A DNA stretch of 63,683 nt, counting the filler, from Folioceros fuciformis (taxonomy: Eukaryota): assembly GCA_049999805.1 (NCBI GenBank). It is 4 parts of 4 records of this genome, joined end to end, with 100 filler letters (N's around TTAATTAATTAA, not from the genome) between each part and the next. Parts side by side here need not be neighbours in the genome. Positions count along the whole stretch, not along the records: positions 39,156 to 54,258 come from JBNGIO010003124.1; 3 more parts are not named here. One strand, 5' to 3'. The translations under genes and the position numbers were made by a program. The notes below the pieces were generated by a model. It did not search any database and was not told the DNA's origin. It saw only the letters and a program-made list of their open reading frames with translations. Positions 6,780 to 56,368 of this stretch are shown piece after piece. Every line of letters starts with the position of its first letter. The stretch's first letter is position 1.

Positions 6780-9720
6780 AGCTCAGCAGTGTCCGCTACA
6801 ATTGTAAGCTCGTATTCTCTTGCTTTCTATGGAATAGGCTTTCTCTGGAGGGAGCATTCTTTTGAGTGAATCCTCTTTGAAGTGCATTCTCTTGTTAGAA
6901 ATCCGGTTGAGGTGTGCGTGTGTGCAGTGTGCAAGATCATGTGACCCAATCGAGGATTTGAGTTGCCAAGCTACAGCTTTGAGAAGTGTGGATGCAGGTA
7001 GAGGAGATTTTGTGGTGTCTGAAAGAAGCAAATGCTTCACTCTTACAAGCTTACAGCTCTTAGGCAGGCTCGTTGAGAGAATATGAGTTGCTCAAAGGCT
7101 AGATTAAGCTTGGAAGTTTCAACTCTCAAGGCTTGTTGCAAGACACTAGTTGTTGAAGAGCTGAAAAGTTGGGAAGGTAGCCAAGTCATGAGTAGAGGCT
7201 GACAACGAGAAGGAGCTTTTAAGGCCACAAGGAAGAGCTTCAGCAAGTCAAATGGAGGAGCTAGTTGTTGGAAGATCATGGCACAACGAATTCCTACACA
7301 CTTGGAGGCATCATGGGTATGAGATTCATGGTGTAAAAAAAAAAGCAGCAACTCGATCGCCAAGAAGATGCCCTTAGCTTTGTCACGAGGGTAGTGCATG
7401 GGGTGCAGCCTGACCGCGAGGGCAGGGTGGGGGTGCAATGAGCTTAGGTACAGACTGTTGTTAAGCGCGCGTGTGGATGAAGTACCTAAATAACGAACTT
7501 GCCCAATCAAAGTGCATTGATCGCCACCTGCTCCATGTACTTTCGGTAATCAGGAGCCAGCCAGTACAGCTAGACAGTGTTCTTTGGCTCCTTCACACAT
7601 ATGGCCACCGGATCCACCAGGATCTTGCTAGCAAGTACCATGTCTCGTTACATCATAGTTGGGACATCACGGTCACCCCTATCTAAGAGCTGGAACACCG
7701 ACTAGTCGCCCAGCATAATTTCAAAATACAAAGCCCGGAGCACTAAGGTGCCCATTTCGAATACCTCTCCACCCCACGCCGAGTCAACATAGTCTTCCTC
7801 TAGAACTTTAGGAGGAGACAATGCCTTCAACAAATTTGACTTTCTTAGCATTGTCGGGTGAAGCCAACACCATGAATGTGTCACCAACTTCTATATTTTC
7901 TCCAATCTCCTCAACATCATCGGGCGCTCCGCTCGCTCCACTAGGACTCGAACTTTCCTTGGGCAGCCTTGACCTCAAAATCTGCCACCTTTTGGTTTTA
8001 GGGGTTTAAGCCTTGGCTCTTGATAACCATGTGGTTTGTGTCTGGTTTGTCTCTAGCAGCTTGCACCCTCTTCCTCTTCCATGGGCACATAGGTCACCTT
8101 AGTGTCATGGGTACCGTCTCCACCTGTGGGCATTTCATCACCACTGCTTGGCCATCTTCTACAATAGAGGCTATGAGCACATATGTGGCCAATTCACCAT
8201 CTTTGTCCAGTTCACCACCCCTAGCAATGTCTAGTATCACTAGAATGCCATTTGTGTGATTAATTGTCACTTCAGTCCCATCGAGCATTTCACCACTAGA
8301 TACAACACATATCTCACGAGCCACTTCATTGACGTCTGCCAAATCTCCTTGTGGGGCAACATCTCCTTTAGTAGGTGGCACTTCCAGTATGTTGTCCACT
8401 ACATCACTAGCTGCCAATTCACACTGGTTGGCCACTTTGTCGGCCAATGCCACATCTTCTGTAGTGGGCACTACGTTATTGTCGTCTACAGGGACAGTAG
8501 GGTCGACTGCTACACCGGCTATCAAGGGCATTTCCCTCTCAACCATGAGCTGATGCAAGTGCATCGGATGTGGAGAAGGAGCCCACTGTGATAGTGGCAA
8601 CTAACTCAGATGAGGTTTAGGCTGATGGTGGCAGGTTGCTCGTGGGCAACCAACAAAATTGACAACTCCAACATTGGCTCCAGCACAGTTTGGGCTCCCT
8701 TTTCCACCTCCTCCTACACATGCACGCTACTAGGAGTCAACACTGAGCACCTTATCACACTGTTCCCTATTGTTTGAACATCGTCCTCACTGAGAGGGAC
8801 TGGGTTTATCCTTGGAACAACAATGTTCGATGGGTTTAGCACATAATTTTGCATGTGCCAGCAATCCTACGTTTGTGGCTTGCCATGATGAGGAAGGGCT
8901 ATCCTTGGAGGAGTGATCTCCACATGGCTTGGTCCAAGAGTGTGGGCTAGCGGGGACAAGGGTGGAAGGCAACTGCATATGCCTTCACATGAGCCAAGGA
9001 CACACCAATCAAAGCATATGACAACAACTCCCCTAGTTTCATAAACAAAAGACATACGACACACGTCACTCACTTGGAGAGTCACTTCAACAACTTCCTT
9101 GATGGCTGGCGTACACGGGCTTGATTTTGGGTACTTGAGTACACAACCCCTCCCTTTAAGCAACCCTCTAGCTGTTTGAAGTCCCACAGCAGCTCATGGT
9201 ACTCCCCTGTCCACTCCAACTCCTGGTTTAGTTGCCAATGTTTCATCTGTACAACACTTGTGAATGGCCACCCTTTGGCTTTCAGCCATTGTGGGGGCAC
9301 TTGCAACTTTCAATCAACCCGTGGACAGCTCACAACAAACTAAAATGTTTGGTACAGACAAGCATCATGGTAGGAAAACAAAGTTGTTGCATGAAAATCA
9401 CCTTCAGTCACAAGACAAAGTAATGAGCGAATGCACAAAACAAACATGAGCGCTATACGCCAAATCCAGCCTGTCTTACCGCGAAATGAGCCTAGAAGCA
9501 GGATGTCCAATGCCTGAAAACGGTAGGAACTCAAGCACCAAGCTTCTGAAAAAAAAGGAAGCTACCACCCAACTCGCCACTCATGCCTCGAAACAGGAGC
9601 AAGGAACCATGATGTCGAGTGCTAGAAAACCACAAGGACTCACACCACAAGCACTTGATAAAAAGGAATCCACCACCCACCTTCCCACTCATTCCTGCAA
9701 ATAGGAGCCTCAAAGGAGGA
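6780..9720 (-). mobile_element. Degenerate L1-type LINE 5' part (ORF1 remnant and 5' UTR)
   Basis: Frameshifted zinc-knuckle-like GVVVICFD..LG/HVKAY near 8975-9035, preceded by KEVVEVTLQVSDVCRMSFVYE (typical pre-knuckle context of plant LINE ORF1), then a long acidic low-complexity region. Degenerate direct repeats at ~9540-9600 and ~9650-9710 resemble 5' UTR monomers. Confidence 0.5.
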
Positions 9721-24130: not shown

Positions 24131-24367
24131 CTCCCTCTAAAGCAACTTTAGGCATTTAACGTGCATTTCCACGACGACACGTGTATTCAAACCCATCACG
24201 GAACATGATCCCTCCACACAGAACGGCGTAACCCAAACCCAAGCGTAAAACCCCTTACGCAAACGACGGACTACGTCCTCGCGCAAGCGTCTGCCGCCGC
24301 CAACATCTCCCTCGCCTACCTGGCTGCGATCAGGCTTAACTTCCACGCCCGCCATCGCCTTACAGAG

Positions 24368-24760
24368 ATGCAGACGCGCAGTGGCAAGGGCTATGTTGCC
24401 TCGGAGAAGACGCCACGGAGAAATAGGGCACAGCCGTCGCCGAGCACAACATCGGGAGAGCAGGAGATCCAGGGAAAATTGCGATGGCTTAGATGTGGGT
24501 CATTGGAGGAGCTTGCACAGTTCATGAACAGCTGCCCAATCAACCCTGGACCTGTTCCAGGGACAGCCCAGGCACCTCGAGAAGAGGGACCCGCACCCCA
24601 GCAGCCTGACTTCCGCTTCTCGGAGCTTGCGCTGCCTGCCCTAGTCGCACAGCTGCGTTTAGCTACCGACAGGATCAGGGAGCTGGAGCACATCCTTGCT
24701 GCTGGAGAAGGGCCTGCGCCAGTTGATGACGAAGAGCAGGATGTGAAGCCATCTTTGTAG
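24368..24760 (+). CDS. Antisense accessory ORF of the Copia element (unknown function; the frame is open further upstream)
   Basis: 130-aa ORF MQTRSGK...DVKPSL, intact and colinear with 55753-56145, with many synonymous differences. Followed by a plus-strand GT-AG intron candidate at 24795-24896. Confidence 0.65.
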   Translation: MQTRSGKGYVASEKTPRRNRAQPSPSTTSGEQEIQGKLRWLRCGSLEELAQFMNSCPINPGPVPGTAQAPREEGPAPQQPDFRFSELALPALVAQLRLATDRIRELEHILAAGEGPAPVDDEEQDVKPSL

Positions 24761-24982
24761 GGGGCACCGTACTGCAGGAAGATTAAGTACTAAGGTAAGC
24801 TTCATCCTTCGTGCAGCACAGCATTGTTGCTCCCTCTGTTTCCTCATGGACTGACGCCGCATCTGACCTAACTATGTGTGCGTGGGGCATGTGCAGTTAT
24901 ATGTGTCTGCAAAGATGTCGAAGGCACCACTCAACAACACCTAGGGAACCTCCGGGTTCCCACCCCAACCTACACAGATAAG

Positions 24983-43470: not shown

Positions 43471-45320
43471 GCTTGAAGCGCCTTTCACGACGAAGCCGAC
43501 AAAAGCAACCGCGCAGTAATAGTTACCTACCATAAAGAAAGGAGAATGTTATTTTAAACATCTTTCTGCCATCTTTCGGCCCGCCGTTTGTCAGGCTTAC
43601 GGTGCAGTGTTTCGATTTATGTCAGGGTTTTTTCAGCTTCTGGTCCCATGGGTTGGCCCGAGATTTATAATGAAATGGATTAAGCCTATCGAAACGTGCC
43701 CTAAAACTCAAACCTACGCTTAAGTTGGCCACAAAGTTGTTGTGGCCATACGCAAGATCCCGTTCCTGCTTGTTGCGGCCGTCCCGCAAGATTGTGTTCT
43801 TGCTTGTTCCATCTGCAGGGTGTGCCTGTGGCTTGGCCTTGTGGGGTTAAGTATTCTATTACTTTGCGGTCAATGGATGAAGCGATGGCTGTTTTGGCTG
43901 CTTTTTCTCAACTGCCAGATTCGGATGATGAAGTTGTGGCTCTAGGATTTGCAAGTCAATATGAGGCAACACAAAGCAGGCGGTCAAACTCTCTCAAGTC
44001 TCTCATCTGGTCAGAAGAGGCAACGTCCACGCTAATTGACTCATACCATGAGATGCATCTTGTGCATCTCAAAGTTGGAAATGTAGGGAACAAGCACTGG
44101 TCTGAAATAGCCAAAGAGGTGGCTAGTACTTATCTATGTGGCAAGAAGTGCAAGCAGAAGCTAGAGAATCTTAAGAAAGAGTATCGCAAGGAGACGGAGA
44201 TGAAGTCAAGCACAGGTTACATGAATTCTACTTGGCCTCATTTTCCATTGGCCATCAATACACCCCACCATGTTAGGTAACCCCGTAAGAGTTTGGAACT
44301 TGGCTGAAATAACTTGTTGCCTATGTTGGGAAGGCCACGTCATAAAATGTGAGAATAATTTTTTTGGATTGCTTAACACTTCAGTAATGTATAAAGTGTA
44401 TTGTAACACTATAGCTGCACCAACTCCATACATATCAGCAATAATATGTGGCAACAAACCACGAGCAAGGCGGTGAAGCACCATTGCCACTGCATGATCT
44501 AGTTGTAAAGGTTCCCGTAAGGAAGACAAAACAATGTGAGATTTTAGTAAACTAACCAATGAAATGAAATTGGGATAAAACATTATGTAAGCAAATCGCC
44601 ATTGAGCATCACGAACTCTCGCCCCGTCCCTATGCCAAGCTATCATGTGCACATCCCTCCATAATGCTATTTGACAAGGATATTTCCACCAGGCTCTATG
44701 TTGGAGCCGCGTATTCTCCTATAGTCATCATAGATATAAAAATAATAATAATAACAAAATTCAAAAAGAAGGGATCATTGAAAAAAATGAATGTTCAAGG
44801 AAGAAGATGGACATCATTCTAGATAGATAATTGTAAATGAGGAGGAACGCATCTCATCATTGTAGAAAATAAATAAATAAATAAATAATCCATAACTACA
44901 TGGATAAAAATCCTATATTATTGCACACAAAAAGGGAAGAGCAAGGTTACACACCAAATGCAACGAGGGATGGGAAGGGCTGCACACCAAAGTGAAAAGA
45001 GGGGAGGGAAACTCTAATGACCTAAAATGTGAGAAGGTGGCCTTATATAGGTCCCGGTCGTATTACAAAAAGGCATTTAACATTAAATCCATATTACCAA
45101 TATCGGGCTTGGACGAGACGCCCGTCCCGAGTTTGGTGCTTGACCATTAAATGTAGGCCTGCGCAGGTCAAGGTCAAGCTGTGAGACACTGCACCGTGAA
45201 AGCCTAACATCGATCCATCACAGCGCTTTCGCAGTTTTTCTTTCTTTAGCCTTTATAATGGATGGTAACCGTATCGACGCTGTTCATTTTGTCACCTACG
45301 TTGTGAAAGGCGTTTGAGCC
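43471..45320. mobile_element. PIF/Harbinger DNA transposon, internally deleted copy 1 (Myb/SANT ORF on +, transposase 5' half on -)
   Basis: Imperfect TIRs gcttgaagcgcctttcacgacg / cgttgtgaaaggcgtttgagcc. Trihelix WSEEATSTLI..HWSEIA..CKQKLENLKKEYRK..STWPHF (43792-44245) abuts minus-strand transposase LHRLARG..IADMYGVG..GLPNMVGCIDG. Confidence 0.88.
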
Positions 45321-45658
45321 TACTGGGTGGACGGAGAGCATCTTGTTGTAGGACATCCAAAGGATTTGTGCGATAGTAGAACCTAAAGAAGATAATGATC
45401 ACGATAAGGTTCATACCTATACCTATCAAGGTATGTGTCATCGAGTTAGCTAGTATGGGGCATGGAATGGTACTTACTCTACTTGCCTTGTGTGAGCTCC
45501 TGTTCACATTTCCGCAAATTAGACAAGGCTTCGATACAACACAATTACGAATGAATTATCATCAGATGAGATACATGGATGGATGGAACATGACAATGGC
45601 TCATATGAGCAAGTCCACTTAACAAAGTTATGAGGGCACTTGTCAACCTGGCACTTTG

Positions 45659-48600
45659 GGTTCAAACGCCTTTCACAACGTAGGCATAGGCGACAAAATG
45701 AATAGCGCGGTTACAGTTACCATAATGAAGGCAAAACAAAGAAAAACTGTGATAGTGCGGTGATGGATTGCTGCTAAGCTTTCACGATGCATTATCTCGC
45801 AGTTTGACTTACGGAGGCCTACATTTAATGGTCAAGCACCAAACCCGGGACAGGTGTCTCGTCTAAGCCCGGTATTGGTAATATGGATTTAACGTTGAAT
45901 ACCTGTTTATAATACGGCCAAGACTTATACAAGGCCACCTTCTCACAAACATTTTAGGCCATTAGAGTTTTCCTTCCCTCTTTCCACTTTGGTGTGCAGC
46001 CTTTCCTTCCCTCTTTGCATTTTGGTGTGCAACCTTTCTCTTCCCTCTTTGTATTTTGCAATAGTATAGGATTTTTATCCATATAATTATGGATTATTTA
46101 TTTATTTTCTATGAGATACACTCCTCCTCCTCGTTTAAAATTATCTAGAATGATGTCATCTTCTTCCCTATTTGATCATTCTTTTTTCTCCCAATGATCC
46201 CTTATTTTTGAATTATGTTATGATTGTTATTTTTATATCTATGATGACTATAGCAATTGAAGAGGACAATACATGGCTCCAACATAGAGCCTGGTGGAAA
46301 TATCCTCGTCAAACAATATTATGGAGATATCCTCGTCAAACAATATTATGGAGATATCCTTGTCAAACAATATTATGGAGGGATGTTCACATGACAGCTT
46401 GGCATAGGGACGGGGGGAGAGTTCATGATGCTCAATGGCGATTTGCTTACAGAATGTCTTATCCCAATTTCATTTCATTGGTTAGTTTACTACATTCTCA
46501 CATTATTTTGTCTTCTTTACAGAAACCTTTACACGTAGATCATGCAATGGTTAGTTTGCTACAGTCTCACATTATTTTGTCTTCTTTATAGGAACCTTTA
46601 CAAGTAGATCATGCAGTGACAATGGTGCTTCACCGCCTTGCTCGTGGTTTGTCGCCACATATTATTGCTGATATGTACGGAGTTGGTGCAGCTACAGTGG
46701 TACAATACACTTTATACATTACTAAAGTGTTGAAAAATCCATAATAAAATTACAAATTATTCTCACATTTTATCACATGGTCTTCCCAACATAGGCAACA
46801 AGTTATTTCAACCAAGTTTCAAACTCTTACAGGGATACCTAACATGGTCGAGTGTATTGATGGATCTCATATCAAGTTAGCCCAACAACCTGATAAGAAA
46901 GATAACCCAGTTGGTGTCGGCATGACATACATTCTATTGTGTTGCAAGGTATTTGTGATGTAGACAAATTCGTTCTAGATATGTGTTGCACATATCCTGG
47001 AGGAGTACATGATGCAACAACATTGAAGGAAAGTAGTGTATGGAAAAGGACGATGGATGGCAAGATTTTGACTGAGCCAAGATTATAAGTTGAAGGAAGG
47101 ATTGTGACCCCTTACATGGTCGGGGATAGCGCATATCCACTTATGCCATTTTTATTGAAACCTTATAATTCAACAAGTAGGCAGGAAGACAAGGCCGTGT
47201 TCAACAGGAACATGCGTCAAGGGCAGGTGAAGATTAAAAATGCATATGCCTTGTTGAAGAACAAGTGGAGAATTTTGAAGAACTGGAATGTGCGTTTGAA
47301 GTATCCTTCTAAAGTTGTGATTGCATGTTGTGGTCTACACAACTTTTGCATTATGGTGAAAGAGCCACAACCTAGGGACATTAATACAGATCTATATCAA
47401 TTACATGAAGAGGGACATGTCAATTTGTGGCAATGTGTCTCCAATTGAATATTGTACAATGAAGCCAAGAAACAAAGGAATGCATTGTTTAACCATTGGA
47501 AAGCCTCAAATATTGAGCGAAATTAAGTTTATAAAGAATTTAAGTTTGCTTCAAATTCAAGTTATCTTTTTATTACAAAAAAAAATATTTGATTTAATAA
47601 TAATATTCATAAATACATGGATATTTTCGAAGACACAAAACTCTAGTGTCCATTGCAGACCCACAAGCTAAAGCCTCTCAAGTGCTCTCATATGTATTGA
47701 TAAGTAGAAATTGCAAGGCTCTCACAAATATGTGTGTAAACTTCAAAATGGAAACGAGCATAAACAGGGCTGGCATATACTCATAAGTAGGAATTGAAAG
47801 GCTCCCATAAGCATGCATACAAACTTCAAAACGGAAACAGCATAGACAGGCCTGGTATAAACTTGTAAGTAGAAATTGTGAGAAACAAACATGCATATAA
47901 ACTTCAAAATGAAAGCATATAGGCATATACTCGTAAGGAGAAATTAGAAGGCTTCACAAGCATGCATGCAAACCTTAAAATGGAACACAAGTTCCTGTCA
48001 TCAAGGCTCTCTCTGTCCTGCCTTTGCTTTCTTAGGAGACCTCCTTGTAGCTAAGGCTTCTACCATGCGAACCTAGTTCTCCATCTAAATTTGCTCTCTC
48101 CTAATGTCATGTTCTAACATAAGCTTTTGCATCTCCAACTGGTTCTTCCTCTCATGTTCTAAGAGTAGCTTCTGCAACTGTAATTGATTTGATATTTTGG
48201 CAGACTCAATAGTAGCTAAACTTTGAGCAAAGAAGTAAGCCCGTTGATCAGTTGGTTTCCAAGGCCTATAGAAGACCGTCTTCTCTTCATACTTCTTCCT
48301 TGCATAGAGTCAAGGAACTCCTTGCTATGTCAACTAGGGGATTCCTCCCTATCTTCTTCTTAAGATTCACTGCCAAAACAAGTTCACATCTGTCTACATC
48401 ACATGCATGCAAAAGGGATCACACATGAAGGGTCCCAGAAAAACACAAGGTGTATAGCCTATACCTAGGAGGAGGGGCTGTTGGTAGTGGCCTTGGTAAA
48501 CTCATAGTGTCTGATGCAAGAAATGGAGAGCTTGGACAAGAAGGTGGCACCTTAGAGTTGTCCTTAGTGCCCTCAGTGTTAGTATCATGCAAGTCAGATT

Positions 48601-48762: not shown

Positions 48763-51575
48763 CTCGAATCCTTGCAAACAAGGTTCCAAGGGAAGATGCG
48801 CCGCCAAGAAGCGTTCTTCCGATGGAAGGACTGGGCGCTAGGTGGTGTGCAAGCCATGGCTTGACGGAGGTTTGACGGTCGGTGGAAGCAATGAGCCCCC
48901 CGCGGGGGAACTTGACAGTCCCCACATGGGCTGAACTGGCTAGTATCTGCACAAGCGTGCAGAATAGACAGAAGCCTAACACAGGAGAGGATGCAACTAA
49001 TCTGGACGGGCTTAGGTGGAAGAAAACAGTGCCTAAGAAGGAGGCTCAAGTACGGAATCTTGAGAACGACACCGCTTGTGGGAGGTCAAATGAGGATGCA
49101 AGTACAGAATCTACCTCGACTCTGGCGAATGAGGAGGCCGGCATCCAGCTTGGTCCTTTAGTGGACATCCTTACCGAGGAGCGCTTTTTTCAGCATGAGG
49201 AGATTAGACTGTCCGGTAGTTCACGGGTGGGGTGACTTTCTGCTGGAGGGCCGCCTTCTGTAGGCGAGTTGGAGGAATGGGTTGCCTCAGTCATAGGGTG
49301 TCCCCCCGCTTACGTCTTCCTGCAGGACAACGGCTCTTTTCAGGTGAAATGTGACGAAGCTGCTGAGGCCCTTGTGCGATTGCAAACAACACATCCTTTC
49401 AGAGGCTCAACCCCGGTGATGGTTGAGGCTTGGTCTCTCGGCAACACACTCATGCAGTCCCAAATCAAGCGTCACTTTGTCTGGGTGCGGCTACCTGCAT
49501 TACCAGTGCAACTTATTCCACTAATCAACAGGATGCTGGAAACCATTGGACGGGTGGTTGAGGTGCCACAGGTGGACTCCCGGTTTTTTGATAGAAACAA
49601 GCCTCCCCGCTTCAATGTAAGAGCAGATAACCTCTCCTCGTTGCCCGCTGGGGTGGTGGTTCGTGATCCGGCAGACTCCTCAAAGAGCTACACACAGCTT
49701 TTCGAGTACCCTGGTCTTCCTGTTAAATGCGGAGTATGTGGCCTGACTAACCATCTTAAGCGAGATTGTCCGCTTCGCTCAAGTGCAGAGGCAAGAGTGT
49801 CAACTCTGAGAAGACACAATCTGAACTCCTACCGGGGTTTCAAGGTATTCAGAAGAAGCCTTGGAGAGCTAACTTGGCTACAAAGAGGTGGGCTCGCTGA
49901 ATCTAGGAAAACTTCTTCCCGAGGCTTGTTGACGCAACCATCACCTACGTGAAAATATGTGTCATCATGAGGAAGAAGGTGGAGAATACCTTCTACTATT
50001 GGATGCCGAAAAGGGAGGAGTTGCAGGCCTTACCTACTCGGTCACTACAGCTAGGAGTCGCAGAGGAAGTTCCTATGGCTGAGCTGTGGGAGATTGTCAG
50101 GCTGAGGGCCATGAGTATTGTACAAGAGGGTCTGGATGCGGGGGAAGTGTACGCAAGCAAACTTTTAAAGGAGGCTAGGTTCAGCGCAATCTGTCACAGA
50201 GTCGAAGTTTCCTCGGCGATTCTATACTTCACCACACTACTAGACTTGGGGAGGGAGAGTCGGATCCCGATCTCCAACAACCCGTAGTGGATGGGGGAGT
50301 CGAAGGTGCTTGCCTTAGTCAAGGATGCTAAGTTCGGTAGAGGCCGGGTCACTCTTGCCACCAGAATAGCGTTTAAGGGTCATTTGGGCTTCTTAGGATT
50401 GCTCACCTTGCCGATCACAATTAAGATTCCAGGGGAGTGGGAACTCAAATGGAAGGAGGATATGGAGGAGGACCGAGCTGTGCCGATGGATGTCGAGACT
50501 CGTGAAGAGGTTCCCTCCCATCATGCGGGTCTGCAAGGAGGTCTGGACCCGCAGGAGCAGGTGCAAGTTGTCTTGAAACCAAGACTTGACATGGAATCCG
50601 AACGGAAGCTGTCGGCAGGTGCAAAAGCGGTGCGGGGCGGAACCACTCCTCAACAAAAACTCACAGGTGACTTCAATGTTGGGCTGGTAGGGGGCAAGAT
50701 GTCTAAGGATGCATGCCGAGAGCCAACAGGTCTACATAAGAGCACCACCTCCTCATCACCGGAAGCAAGTCCAGACAACTTCCAAAAGTCTGGCTCTCGT
50801 CTCGCAAATTTGTAGCGAACAGGCGTAGGAGTCAAGGAGCTGGAACGCTCAGTGAGAGCTAAGAAGGTTCCAGGCGGTAAGAACCATAAGGGTGCAAGGG
50901 CAAGGAAGAAAGAGAGGCTAGGTGATCCTCTGCTGTGCAAGGTGCAGGACAGAGGTTCCTCAGTCTGCAAGGACCCCGTAGCTGGTGCTTCTTCCTGCAG
51001 CGAAGACGTGACTAGAATTCTTACTAGCCACCTGTCTGGCCGTCCAGGGAGCATGCATGTCTGGACAGGACGAGCTCGAAGGCTGGAGGTGGGGTGAGCA
51101 GCTGGCATACCCCTTTTAACGAGGAAGGCATGGAGCGGATTTCTTCTCAGCAGGAAGGTGAACATGAGGACCTTGGGTGTGCCCCCCTTCAGGTGGTACA
51201 GCGGGTGTCGGACCCTAAGCAGGAAATCCTTTCCCCTGGGCAAGATTTGGCCCGCCACCTACCCGGTGGGGCGCCTAATGAGCTGTTGGATGGAACGCTT
51301 GGCAGTGCTACACTCCCCCATTCTGGGGAAGGAATTTGCGCGGACCAAAGCAACGAGGTTGCCCCTGAGTCTGGGGGCACTGGATGGTGTGAATCGCAAC
51401 CGGGTGGTGTGGGGGATGGTGAAGAGCAGCCCTTGCATCGGCTCCAGTTCTCGTCTTTGGAATAGCAGGGACCCCCTAGGCTTGATGGATGAGGAACAAT
51501 TTTGGGCGGTGGAAGTGCTGTGCAACTCAGCGATTTCGGCGATCCTTTGTAGCGTAAAAAGGATCGATAGGCTAG
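48763..51575 (+). mobile_element. L1-type LINE, 5' part (ORF1: DUF4283-like RRM, CCHC knuckle, long extension), degenerate
   Basis: ORF 49269-49952: VFLQDNGSFQVKC, PVMVEAWS, VWVRLPALPVQL..LETIGRVV, FEYPGLPVKCGVCGLTNHLKRDCP. Continues through stops and frameshifts. Cut by a Copia LTR before any ORF2. Confidence 0.85.
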
Positions 51576-54258
51576 CGTAGGAAAGAAGCACAAATGAGTG
51601 AGAATTAATTAATATGTGTGAGTAAGGCCTTTTATGGCCGTGTCCCGTGAACCTGTACGATGGTTGACGGGTAACAATTTGTAAGGGCACGTTTCGTGCT
51701 CGTTCGTATTACGTGTGTATGCTTAACCTAAATCTACGCTTAATAACGAGAAGCGGGCTATCCTAGGGCAACCATCTCTCGGTACCCCCACTTAGACTGC
51801 ATTCCCGTCGTTGTGAACTCACTTGCGCCGTAATCTCCGGCCGTCCTCAGCTTTTGCACACACTCCGTCTGCAGAACGGATTGCAGCTATGCTGAGTGTT
51901 GGCGGCCTTTCTCACTTGGATGGAAGCTTTGTCCTTTTGCTCTTGCTTGCACTGCTGGTTGGCGTCGCTCTCTAGGAACAAAAACGATTTGCCGAGAGGT
52001 ATCTGGTGCCCCAGAGGACTCGCAGGTCTTCAGTGCAAGACAAGGAGGAGCGGCTTCTTCAAAGGATGAGATCACTACATGGAGAGTTGCGGCAGCTCGA
52101 GGGGTTGCCTTCTTGTTTTGATGCAGAAGACTTCCGCAAGCTGTCGCCGTGTCCGGGTCTCGCAATGATTCTTGAGTCCGCTCACAGTGATGCAGAGGGT
52201 AACCTGGTCTTCAGGTACGCTCCCTTTTGGAGGTGCCCTGAAGCGGCGGCAGAGATGGTAGGCTTGTAGTTGATTTACCTGTACACGCACAAGAGTGAAG
52301 CAAGGTAGCAATTCCCTTGTGTGTCCATCTGCCCCCACTGTTTGTGACAAGGCTAACCCTCAGTGAGGGTGCGTGCTCGTGCTGTGCAGCTGTGCAGGTG
52401 TCAAAAGCTTGCTTGAGTGCCAAGCCCCAAACCCTTGCAGTGAGCGGTGTGACGGTCCTTTGGAAGTGGCTTCGTGAGTAAATCTGCTAAATTATGCTCT
52501 GTGGGTACATATACTAGATCGATTTCCCTAGAGGCTACAGTCTGCCTAATGTAGTGCTGCTTGACAGCTATGTGTCGGGTCCATCAATGATGCACTGGAT
52601 TTCTGGACAAGGCTATGGCTGACTGGTTGTCACAGTATACAGTAGTAGCTCCGGGTTGAGGAAAACCCACAGATGCCATGAACGCCTAGGCGGTTGTAAA
52701 CAGTTTCTTGAGCAACTGCAGTTGCAGCTGTATATTCCGCCTCTGTACTGGATAGGGCTACAACTGTCTGCTTCTTCGATGTCCAGTTGACCACACCTCC
52801 ACTTAGCATGGTACAGTTGGTAGTGATGGACTGCTTGGAATCCTCATCTCTTGCCCAGTCTGAATCCGAGTAGCAGATAAGTAACGGGAACTTCCCTTGT
52901 GATTTATAGCTAATGCCAACGTGTTGAGTGCCTTTCAGGTAGCGAAGGACTCTTTTGACACCTGTCCAGTGGGCATTGCCAGGATTGGCGAGAAACCTTG
53001 AAAATATTCTGGTTGTTGGAGACACATCCGGTCTTGTCCACCCACTGATCCAGATAAGGCACCCTGTGAGCATGCTGTATGGCTTCTTTGCCATTTCCTG
53101 CATTTCTGCTTCAGTCTTTGGACTTTGATCAACAGAGTATTTTTCTCTTACCGCCATGGGAGTGATGGCAGTTTTGCAATTTGTCATCATGAACGTTTCT
53201 AGCATTTGCCTTACATAATGTGCCTGATGGCAAAATATGCTTCCCTTATCAGGACTAATGCAAATCTGTATGCCTAGAAAGAAGGTGAGCTGTCCAAGAT
53301 CTGTCATGGAGACCTCGGCCATGAGAATTGACTTAACCTTCTTCATAATTCCTAGGGAGTTAGCAAAGATCAGCGCGTCATCAATGTACAAAGCTAAGAT
53401 TGCAAACTCCTGCCCATTTCTGTAGATGTACACATTTGTGTCAGCATCACTTTGGACGAACCCTGACTTGAGTAGATAGTCATGGATTTTCTGGTACCAT
53501 ACTCTTGGTGCCTGCTTCAAGCCGTACAGGCTTTTCTTAAGCCTGCAAACCTTATGTGGTTCAGTTTTGCTGACGTAGCCCTCAAGTTGCGTGATATACA
53601 TCTCCTCCTCGATTGTGCCATGCAGGAAGGCGGTTTTAACATCCATGTGCTGGATGTCCAGCTTGTGTTCAGCAACCAAGGCAAACTGCATTCTGACTGA
53701 AGATGTCTGTACCACAAGTGAGGAGGTTTCGTTGAAATCTAACCCTTCAATCTGCTTGTAACCATGGACTACGTATCTAGCCTTGTATTTGGCTACCGAC
53801 CCATCTGGATTCAGCTTCTTCTTAAACACCCACTTTTCTGTAAGTGCCTTACGCCCTGGAGGCAGATCGACCAGTTCCCACGTGTTGTTATGTATGAGAG
53901 ACTGGTATTCAGAGTCGACGCCAGCTTTCCAGAGTTTGCCTTCAGGGGAGGACAACGCCTCCTTTAACGTGGCTGGCTCCCCAAGGTCCTGTGCAGCTAA
54001 CAGGGCCTGGGCAACATAATTGTGTGGTGTGCTCGACTCGTGAGGTAAGGGATTGGCTAGACTGGCAGTAAGGTGCGCTTGTTGCTGCCAAAATTCTTCA
54101 TCCAGTTCATAGCTTAGAGGCTTGTGTGTCCACTGACTTGTGTCTGTGGTATGACTCCTACCAGATCGTCTAGGTGCTTGTGGCTCAGGAGCAGACTCTT
54201 CTACATCCTCGGATGCATGTTCCTCATCATTCTCCTCAGGTTCTGGTGAGGGCGAAGA
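51576..54258 (-). mobile_element. Ty1/Copia element (third family), 3' part
   Basis: ORF 52630-53955: WELVDLPPGRKALTEKWVFKKK, YKARYV, HMDVKTAFLHG, LYIDD, YSDSDWA, LSSTEAEY. The frameshifted RNase H end runs to ~52450. PPT-like (minus strand ctaagtggggg) at ~51785-51795. LTR ~51576-51784, ends imperfect. Confidence 0.9.
51889..52269 (+). pseudogene. Antisense accessory ORF of the third Copia family (TM segment + coiled coil; one in-frame TAG)
   Basis: ATG 51889: MLSVGGLSHLDGSFVLLLLLALLVGVAL*EQKRFAERYLVPQRTRRSSVQDKEERLLQRMRSLHGELRQLEG...EMVGL*. Followed by a plus-strand intron candidate at 52305-52397. Confidence 0.55.
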
Positions 54259-55647: not shown

Positions 55648-56145
55648 ATGATGGACTACGTCCTCGTGCAAGTGTTTGCCACCGCCAACATCTCCCTCGC
55701 CTTCCTGGCTGCGATCAAGCTCAACTGCCACGCCCGAGATCGCCTTGCAGAGATGCAGACGCGCAGTGGCAAAGTCTATGTCGCCTCAGAGAAGACGCTA
55801 AGGAGAAGAAGGACACAACCGGCACCCAGCACAACACCGAGAGAGGAGGAGGCCCAGGGAAAACTGCGATGGATCAGGTGTGGGTCATTGGAGGAGCTTG
55901 CACGGTTCATGAAAAGCTGCCCAATCAACCCTGGACCTGTTCCAGGGACAGCCCAGGCACCTTGGGAAGAAGGACCCGCACCCCAGCAGCTTGACTTCCG
56001 CTTCTCGGAGCTTGCGCTGCTTGCCCTAATCGCGCAGCTGCGTTTAGCCACCGACATGGTCACGGAGCAGGAGCATATCCTTGCTGCTGGAAAAGGGCCT
56101 GCGCCAATTAATGACGAAGAGCAGGATGTGAAGCCATCTTTGTAG
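55648..56145 (+). CDS. Antisense accessory ORF of Copia copy B (165 aa)
   Basis: Open from ATG 55648 (MMDYVLVQVFATANISLAFLAAIKL...) through MQTRSGK...DVKPSL. Homologous to 24368-24760. Intron candidate at 56180-56282. Confidence 0.65.
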   Translation: MMDYVLVQVFATANISLAFLAAIKLNCHARDRLAEMQTRSGKVYVASEKTLRRRRTQPAPSTTPREEEAQGKLRWIRCGSLEELARFMKSCPINPGPVPGTAQAPWEEGPAPQQLDFRFSELALLALIAQLRLATDMVTEQEHILAAGKGPAPINDEEQDVKPSL

Positions 56146-56368
56146 AGGGCGCTATACTGCAGGAAGATTAAGTACTAAGGTAAGCTTCATCCTTCGTGCA
56201 GCACAGCATTGGTTGCTCCCTCTGTTTCTTCATGGACTGACGCCGCAGCTGACCTAACTGTGTGTGTGTGAGGCATGTGCAGTTATTTGTGTCTGCGAAG
56301 AGGTTGAAGGCACCACTCAGCAACACCTAGGGAACCTTCGGGTTCCCGCCCCAACCTACACAGATAAG

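What the first reader, a model, noticed from the sequence alone, without database searches (positions are those of the whole stretch)
51800..52450. A second, unrelated Copia family has the same antisense ORF + 3' UTR intron layout, with a clear TM helix
Seen: in the equivalent position of a different Copia element, ATG 51889 opens a frame with FVLLLLLALLVGVAL (TM-like), one TAG (plausibly a CAG>TAG decay), a coiled-coil-like EERLLQRMRSLHGELRQLEG, and a TTG TAG end at 52269. It is followed ~35 nt later by AAG|GTAGCA, GGCTAAC and TGTGCAG| (52305-52397). No sequence similarity to the first family's ORF is visible, yet orientation, size, stop-to-donor spacing and intron length are alike. The ORF track missed the TM part. 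Inference: a lineage-wide antisense accessory module; a membrane-anchored coiled-coil protein in the env position would be unusual.
Basis: partly seen in the sequence, partly recalled or inferred. Interest (0 to 1): 0.72.

Follow-up and report, generated by a model that had tools for sequence, protein, structure and literature searches.

The report
Backwards membrane-protein gene in Copia elements
A plant Copia jumping gene carries, backwards behind its polymerase gene, an extra gene for a small protein predicted to sit in a membrane; the gene is broken in this copy but open and under selection in relatives, and its protein likely anchors the element's particles to cell membranes.

Summary
The antisense ORF 51889-52269 is a real gene, decayed in this copy. 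The stop is in 2 of 21 copies with letters there; 18 read one sense codon, not the glutamine guessed. dN/dS is 0.26 over 8 subfamily representatives. The protein has one N-terminal hydrophobic helix, a basic flank, a short amphipathic helix (not a shown coiled coil) and a conserved Cys/hairpin domain. Homologues occur in other Copia families here and among unannotated public proteins; no Pfam or fold match. It is unrelated to the first family's ORF, but both families lie in one RT clade carrying at least three unrelated antisense gene types. Antisense splicing is supported in two sister families by frame-preserving coding introns. The named intron is only partly conserved: donor 12 of 21, acceptor at 52389, and it holds a second polypurine-tract copy, 21 of 21. 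No RNA could be tested. Best reading (0.4): an accessory membrane anchor for particles. Antisense ORFs here are known from Gypsy elements; this scan noted antisense genes in Copia elements of other genomes.

The parts
51550..51784 (-). 3' LTR of the Copia copy, about 235 bp, TA...TA ends
   Evidence: full-length relatives L031 and L032 have LTR pairs 98.7% and 95.7% identical, 5-bp target duplications and a tRNA-Met-type PBS
51785..51792 (-). main polypurine tract (AGTGGGGG)
51889..52269 (+). antisense accessory ORF, 126 codons, broken here by one in-frame stop at 51973-51975
51916..51972 (+). predicted single transmembrane helix (residues 10-28, Kyte-Doolittle 19-mer 2.53), basic C-terminal flank, predicted N-out/C-in
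52045..52098 (+). amphipathic helix (residues 53-70)
   Evidence: hydrophobic moment 1.0-1.2 in five relatives; helix at pLDDT 82-85 in the domain model
52132..52230 (+). conserved C-terminal part: invariant Cys, short helix, D-x-x-G-x-L-x-F-x-Y-x-P-(F)W hairpin motif
52305..52389 (+). putative 3' UTR intron of the antisense RNA (donor 12 of 21, CTAAC 20 of 21, acceptor 18 of 21 copies); use not shown
52332..52339 (-). second copy of the polypurine-tract octamer, inside the putative intron, 21 of 21 copies
52401..54238 (-). pol (RT, RNase H), broken by stops and a frameshift; stop at 52401-52403; contig ends at 54258
24263..24760 (+). first family's antisense ORF (second copy 55648-56145); unrelated sequence, same position, own putative intron 24795-24897 with PPT copy 24830-24837

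Best explanation
This is a Copia accessory gene on the strand opposite gag-pol, broken in this copy and under purifying selection in the family, whose small protein is predicted to be a single-pass membrane protein that likely anchors the element's particles to an internal membrane. Shown: gene, selection, position, homologues, spread through one RT clade, exchange of gene type between families, loss from some multiplied copies. Inferred from sequence: transcription from within or beside the 3' LTR and splicing next to the end of pol; an intron on the antisense strand is never removed from the genomic RNA, so reverse transcription cannot lose it, and it lets the gene span a second PPT copy; a donor under 50 nt behind the stop would avoid nonsense-mediated decay (rule recalled). 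Inferred by analogy: N-out/C-in insertion in the ER, with the cytosolic helix and Cys/hairpin domain binding Gag, RNA or a host trafficking factor, which would place particles at the nuclear envelope or plasmodesmal ER and raise inherited insertions. It would act in trans and be dispensable in cis.
For: dN/dS 0.26, third positions most variable; open copies in several subfamilies; hydrophobic helix plus basic flank kept in homologues at 25-35% identity and in unrelated antisense ORF types of the same clade (L199, L208, L186, L089: 19-mer hydropathy 2.1-2.7), so the anchor is the shared trait; coding introns that restore the family's Y-x-P-W motif in a homologous sister group and keep frame in a third type; host introns look alike (about 100-110 nt, GTAAGC, TGTGCAG). 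Precedent: insect sORF2, a small TM protein with basic patch and amphipathic tail, in elements that pass between cells (PMC11952523, passages and section 8); plasmodesmal or chaperone roles proposed for env-like ORFs (PMC7264820).
Against: No experiment, RNA or structure ties the protein to particles. No myristoylation motif and an ectodomain of only about 9-13 residues. Known plant antisense ORF products are nuclear or predicted to bind DNA (PMC7264820, PMC11963269). Copies lacking most of the gene (L027, L029) or the helix (L012, L013, L022) have multiplied, and sister families lack the module. Some first-family copies have only a weak hydrophobic stretch (1.5). This family's donor is lost in 9 of 21 copies, and CTAAC is also the reverse complement of a sense-strand donor-like GTTAG.
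Confidence: 0.4

Rival explanations
1. A regulator of the element or of host silencing, like retroviral antisense genes: the protein is parked in a membrane and released or made without its anchor, and the antisense RNA, which runs into the end of pol, damps the element.
For: First-type ORFs have an internal M-x-T-R-S-G start behind the hydrophobic stretch and a basic region; the acceptor lies 12 nt from the pol stop, so the RNAs would overlap; Grande gene23 is nuclear and regulatory roles are proposed (PMC7264820).
Against: This family has no in-frame ATG between the anchor and the middle of the helix, no nucleic-acid-binding domain, and the anchor is kept in every full-length homologue examined.
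Confidence: 0.27
2. A selfish membrane-active protein (small pore former or copy-number restriction factor) that favours carrier cells or blocks competing elements.
For: Size and single helix fit viroporin-like proteins (recalled); three unrelated types exchanged within one clade suggest conflict.
Against: No antidote partner was identified; the hydrophobic helix lacks conserved polar residues; purifying, not diversifying, selection within the family.
Confidence: 0.13
3. A FAST/sORF2-like cell fusogen or true envelope substitute that lets particles cross plasma membranes.
For: Same order of parts: short N-terminus, TM, basic patch, amphipathic tail, 106-145 aa.
Against: No MGxxxS/T motif in any of 13 aligned proteins; walled cells; antisense orientation in a Copia.
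Confidence: 0.08
4. Not a gene: the frame is a by-product of a sense-strand frame or of conserved cis-elements.
For: The mirror frame also shows dN/dS 0.39; no RNA support was obtainable.
Against: Mirror frame has 16 stops against 3; conserved ATG; protein-level homologues at 25-35% identity; frame-preserving introns in sister groups.
Confidence: 0.03

Closest known systems
Antisense ORFs between pol and 3' LTR (aORF-3R) of Grande, RIRE2, Retand, PvRetro13, Boty (PMC7264820, main text read; PMC11963269, passages)
   Same: Position, orientation, presence in most copies, conservation, unknown function
   Different: Retand is a Gypsy lineage of flowering plants with a 2.9-6.6 kb region and a TRP28 domain; products are nuclear or predicted DNA-binding. 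Here: Copia, 0.5-0.9 kb region, 110-165 aa, predicted membrane anchor, intron-bearing, no Pfam domain
Sirevirus (SIRE) env-like ORF and multiple PPTs (PMC6317226, PMC2829016, passages)
   Same: Copia, extra ORF between pol and 3' LTR, extra identical PPT octamers in the linker, tRNA-Met PBS
   Different: SIRE ORF is sense and was counted at 250 codons or more; octamer AGGGGGAG, about four copies clustered near the LTR, AT/TG junction; here antisense, two copies of a family-specific octamer, the second near pol, TA or TG LTR start
MDG1-group sORF2 and reovirus FAST proteins (PMC11952523, passages and section 8)
   Same: Small single-pass protein, predicted N-out/C-in, basic patch, amphipathic tail, in an env-less LTR element
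   Different: Sense ORFs of insect elements, mostly myristoylated; no sequence similarity shown; here antisense, plant, no MG motif
Small single-pass plant virus movement proteins (TGB3, closterovirus p6; recalled)
   Same: Size, one N-terminal helix, ER-type anchor
   Different: No Pfam or BFVD match; analogy only

Membership tests
Ty1/copia LTR retrotransposon | RVT_2 RT, integrase before RT, LTRs, PBS, PPT, target duplication | tested here: met
   RVT_2 1e-72 in this copy; gag-to-RNase H order, LTR pair, PBS and 5-bp duplication in L031, L032
aORF-3R (structural class) | [quoted passage not shown] | tested here: met
aORF-3R (structural class) | Own antisense transcript | tested here: inconclusive
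   No RNA holder listed; indirect support from coding introns in sister groups
Retand-type antisense ORF | Gypsy host element and TRP28 (PF04195) domain | tested here: not met
   Element is Copia; no Pfam match above cut-off in 18 proteins
Sirevirus env-like ORF | Sense orientation, long ORF | tested here: not met
   Antisense, 126 codons
Sirevirus | AGGGGGAG octamer 10 bp before LTR with AT/TG junction | tested here: not met
   AGTGGGGG directly followed by TA or TG
Named REXdb Copia lineage (Lyco, Bryco, Gymco, others) | RT/RH/INT clustering with reference elements | not testable with these tools
   No reference set held; full tRNA-Met-type PBS argues against Osser, Bryco, Bianca and TAR as described in PMC6317226
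FAST/sORF2-like | Short single-pass protein, N-out/C-in, basic patch, amphipathic tail | tested here: met
   Hydropathy, charge and moment; predictions only
FAST/sORF2-like | N-terminal myristoylation motif MGxxxS/T | tested here: not met
   0 of 13 aligned proteins; also absent from 2 of 6 sORF2
FAST/sORF2-like | Fusion or cell-to-cell transfer activity | not testable with these tools
   needs experiment
Coiled-coil protein | Three or more heptads | tested here: inconclusive
   One helix of about 19 residues, amphipathic; no coiled-coil predictor or oligomer model run

The most novel reading that the evidence does not exclude
A Copia clade of seed-free plants has a dedicated, spliced antisense slot for small membrane proteins, refilled at least three times with unrelated genes, and these act as movement proteins that carry retrotransposon particles through plasmodesmata into the cells that make the next generation.
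Probability: 0.2. Interest if true: 0.87.

Novelty: new variant of a known kind. Interest (0 to 1): 0.63.

Why it matters
Copia elements outside the SIRE lineage are held to be plain gag-pol units. Here a whole clade carries a second, oppositely read, intron-bearing gene for an undescribed small membrane protein, below the 250-codon cut-off of the standard survey (PMC6317226). Small, simple ORFs in a likely seed-free plant make the old question of what env-position genes do in walled cells, and whether plant retrotransposons move between cells, directly testable.

Tried and rejected
RNA: no RNA holder listed; the one run offered, a guess as RNA, gave no contig on the ORF in the window copy or in L031: no evidence either way. 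The idea that the stop is a splice acceptor and the 'TM' a pyrimidine tract was rejected: 18 of 21 copies have a sense codon there. A sense-strand intron from the GTTAG opposite CTAAC was judged unlikely, since no copy of 26 lacks it cleanly; the large deletion in L027/L029 ends in short repeats, not splice sites. A regex intron count did not separate carriers from non-carriers (16 of 55 against 12 of 34) and is not used. A hairpin over the donor is weak (mean z -1.25 and -1.12). Whole-protein model pTM 0.27, domain model pTM 0.38; nothing in PDB by Foldseek, best VIA Z 2.4, nothing in BFVD; ESM Atlas under 0.9 twice; Pfam nothing above cut-off. Scans of metagenome and viral contigs found no context for the distant homologues. 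No public homologue of the first-type ORF among proteins of 39-289 aa. P0003, P0006, P0011 are repeat-protein hits and were dropped; P0002 looks like a C-to-T converted twin of P0001 and is not counted as independent. The pairwise RNase H column was in the wrong frame; only its correct-frame line (0.107) is used. The bacterial promoter scan is not relevant. The careful tree and a dimer model were not obtained.

Full report
Setting. The window is a string of contigs joined by N spacers; the finding lies on G000:C3124. The element is a Copia on the minus strand: RT at E 1e-72, pol stop at 52401-52403, PPT at 51785-51792, 3' LTR 51550-51784. This copy's pol is broken and the contig ends at 54258. 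Two full-length relatives (L031, L032) have LTR pairs 98.7% and 95.7% identical, 5-bp target duplications, a tRNA-Met-type PBS and TA or TG...TA ends. The host is a land plant: its Rubisco small subunit matches PDB chain 9chz_I best, 137 bits against 118 for the next; I recall that entry as hornwort Rubisco, so 'seed-free plant, hornwort-like' is likely, not shown.

The ORF is a gene. A DNA search gave 38 matches, a lower bound; I aligned 26 loci of the 30 fetched after dropping 4 duplicates. All 23 with letters at the start column have the ATG. At the stop position 21 have letters: 2 stops (this copy and its 96% twin L002), 18 one sense codon that is not glutamine, 1 other at a deletion edge. 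Six copies are open for 124-138 codons. Across 8 subfamily representatives (28 pairs, not independent) dN/dS is 0.26 (dS 0.64, dN 0.17); four other frames give 0.97-1.19; the mirror frame gives 0.39 with 16 stops against 3; RNase H gives 0.11.

The protein. Residues 10-28 form a hydrophobic helix (19-mer 1.9-2.5 in five copies) with no net charge before it and 3-6 K/R in the next 20 residues, which predicts N-out/C-in. A 19-residue amphipathic helix follows (moment 1.0-1.2), then an invariant Cys, a short helix and a D-x-x-G-x-L hairpin ending in Y-x-P-(F)W. A profile search of 1.84 billion proteins gave 11 hits at E up to 0.001: 7 unannotated proteins of 100-145 aa with the same layout at 25-32% identity, 1 near-twin of this family and 3 repeat proteins that I dropped; an eighth distant one came. 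All lie on short unnamed contigs whose context I could not see. No Pfam, Atlas or fold match was found; the models are of low confidence, so this shows no new fold.

The clade. I fetched 100 of the 150 scored RT hits (2920 candidates), added known carriers, and kept 93 rows with enough RT and downstream DNA. The tree is the quick one, SH-aLRT only. One 57-row clade (97) holds all profile hits: this protein family in the window's family and in L109 and L110 (RT 59% and 51% identical), and the first family's type in 9 rows. Further antisense ORFs in that clade include a sister group (65 matches) related to this protein (HHalign 61%, E 8e-5) and a Cys-rich type (41 matches). The first type is unrelated to this one (0.3%) and to the sister group (0.1%), yet most types begin with a hydrophobic helix and basic flank. 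The other clade (36 rows) has no profile hit, and at least 20 of its rows have a PPT-like run within 50 nt of the RNase H end; three of its rows have a longer 3' region that I did not examine. Several rows inside the 57-row clade lack the module (L129, L175, L136, L173, L128).

Splicing. In the sister group 26 loci were aligned; 24 could be parsed, of which one (L246) had its donor misplaced by the script though the alignment shows it. Of the other 23, 17 have TAY-G|GT at one position, 5 young copies and 1 other have lost it. The 74-95 nt interior is unalignable, the acceptor is mostly GCAG, and the next exon continues P-W for about 17 conserved residues, restoring the Y-x-P-W motif that is unbroken in the window's family. 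In the Cys-rich type 8 of 11 loci with a donor show a phase-1 intron followed by a conserved exon in one frame. Host introns look the same. This supports a spliced, translated antisense RNA in the clade. For the window's family the case is weaker: of 21 countable copies (5 set aside for gaps or insertion) the donor is in 12, CTAAC in 20, the acceptor at 52389 in 18. The donor is missing from one subfamily of 8 plus L008, including open-ORF copies; a weak GT about 25 nt upstream might replace it. The first family's intron has a strong donor 34 nt behind the stop; relatives show 0-36 nt, all under the roughly 50 nt that, as I recall, triggers nonsense-mediated decay.

Second PPT. The best-kept motif in the putative intron is the reverse complement of the PPT octamer, 21 of 21; L031 has the octamer only at these two places (12 of 200 shuffles reach two). 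In other groups the second copy matches that group's own PPT variant (AGTGGGAG, AGAGGGAG); L155 is a counter-example, and in L199 the copy lies in the exon. Extra PPTs are known from Sireviruses, Athila4, Calypso, Ty1 and HIV-1, with unclear role (PMC2829016, passages).

Mechanism. Copies that lack 80% of the gene or exactly the amphipathic helix have multiplied, so the product is accessory or supplied in trans. What unrelated gene types share is the anchor, so I take membrane attachment as the selected trait and a particle anchor as the most likely role (0.4), ahead of a regulator (0.27), a selfish membrane-active protein (0.13) and a fusogen (0.08). None is tested.

Literature. Antisense ORFs in this position are known, from Grande, RIRE2, Retand, PvRetro13 and Boty, with nuclear or DNA-binding products where studied (PMC7264820, main text; PMC11963269, passages). 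For Copia the survey names the sense ORF of SIRE as characteristic and counts only ORFs of 250 codons or more (PMC6317226, passages); its supplements, which I could not see, may list antisense Copia ORFs. Ten searches of open papers (listings only unless named above) showed no paper on small antisense membrane proteins in Copia; subscription journals are not covered. This scan has unreviewed notes of antisense genes in Copia elements of other genomes, not tested here and not counted as support.

Verdict. Real, lineage-wide, an undescribed protein family in a known kind of slot; function inferred. New variant of a known kind, interest 0.63.

Noticed in passing
L031:7481-8128 (-) and relatives: The same family carries a conserved extra sense ORF of about 215-230 aa before gag, overlapping the gag start (36 matches, 47-100% identity, many open), and a short Cys-containing ORF right behind the PBS: a three- or four-gene Copia.
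   Followed up: partly
window 52332-52339, 24830-24837, 56216-56223: Second PPT octamer near the pol end that tracks each family's own PPT variant.
   Followed up: partly
L031 LTRs 1818-2055 and 8606-8843; window 51550-51784: Non-canonical TA...TA (or TG...TA) LTR ends with a short terminal inverted repeat and no spacer before PBS or after PPT.
   Followed up: partly
L199:1704-2129 (-), L247-L266: A third antisense type: hydrophobic helix, two CxxC pairs, basic tail, spliced onto a helical second exon.
   Followed up: partly
window 24795-24810 and relatives: A GCTTCATCC motif just inside the antisense donor is kept across families with about 45-50% RT identity; unexplained.
   Followed up: no
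L217-L220, L224: A young subfamily of the sister group has lost the shared donor and may use a later one.
   Followed up: no
window 49236-51549: The Copia copy abuts a LINE-like ORF1 region (DUF4283); contigs of run X1 follow related DNA up to about 51540 and then diverge.
   Followed up: no
G000:C6165:234556: An RT match in an open frame of 3875 codons, unusually long for a Copia.
   Followed up: no
L188, L189, L215: Rows outside the carrier clade with 360-500 nt between pol and PPT, content not examined.
   Followed up: no
window 44252-46863: Nested long inverted repeats around 45500 beside a Myb/SANT-like ORF (43705-44277), possibly a fold-back DNA transposon.
   Followed up: no
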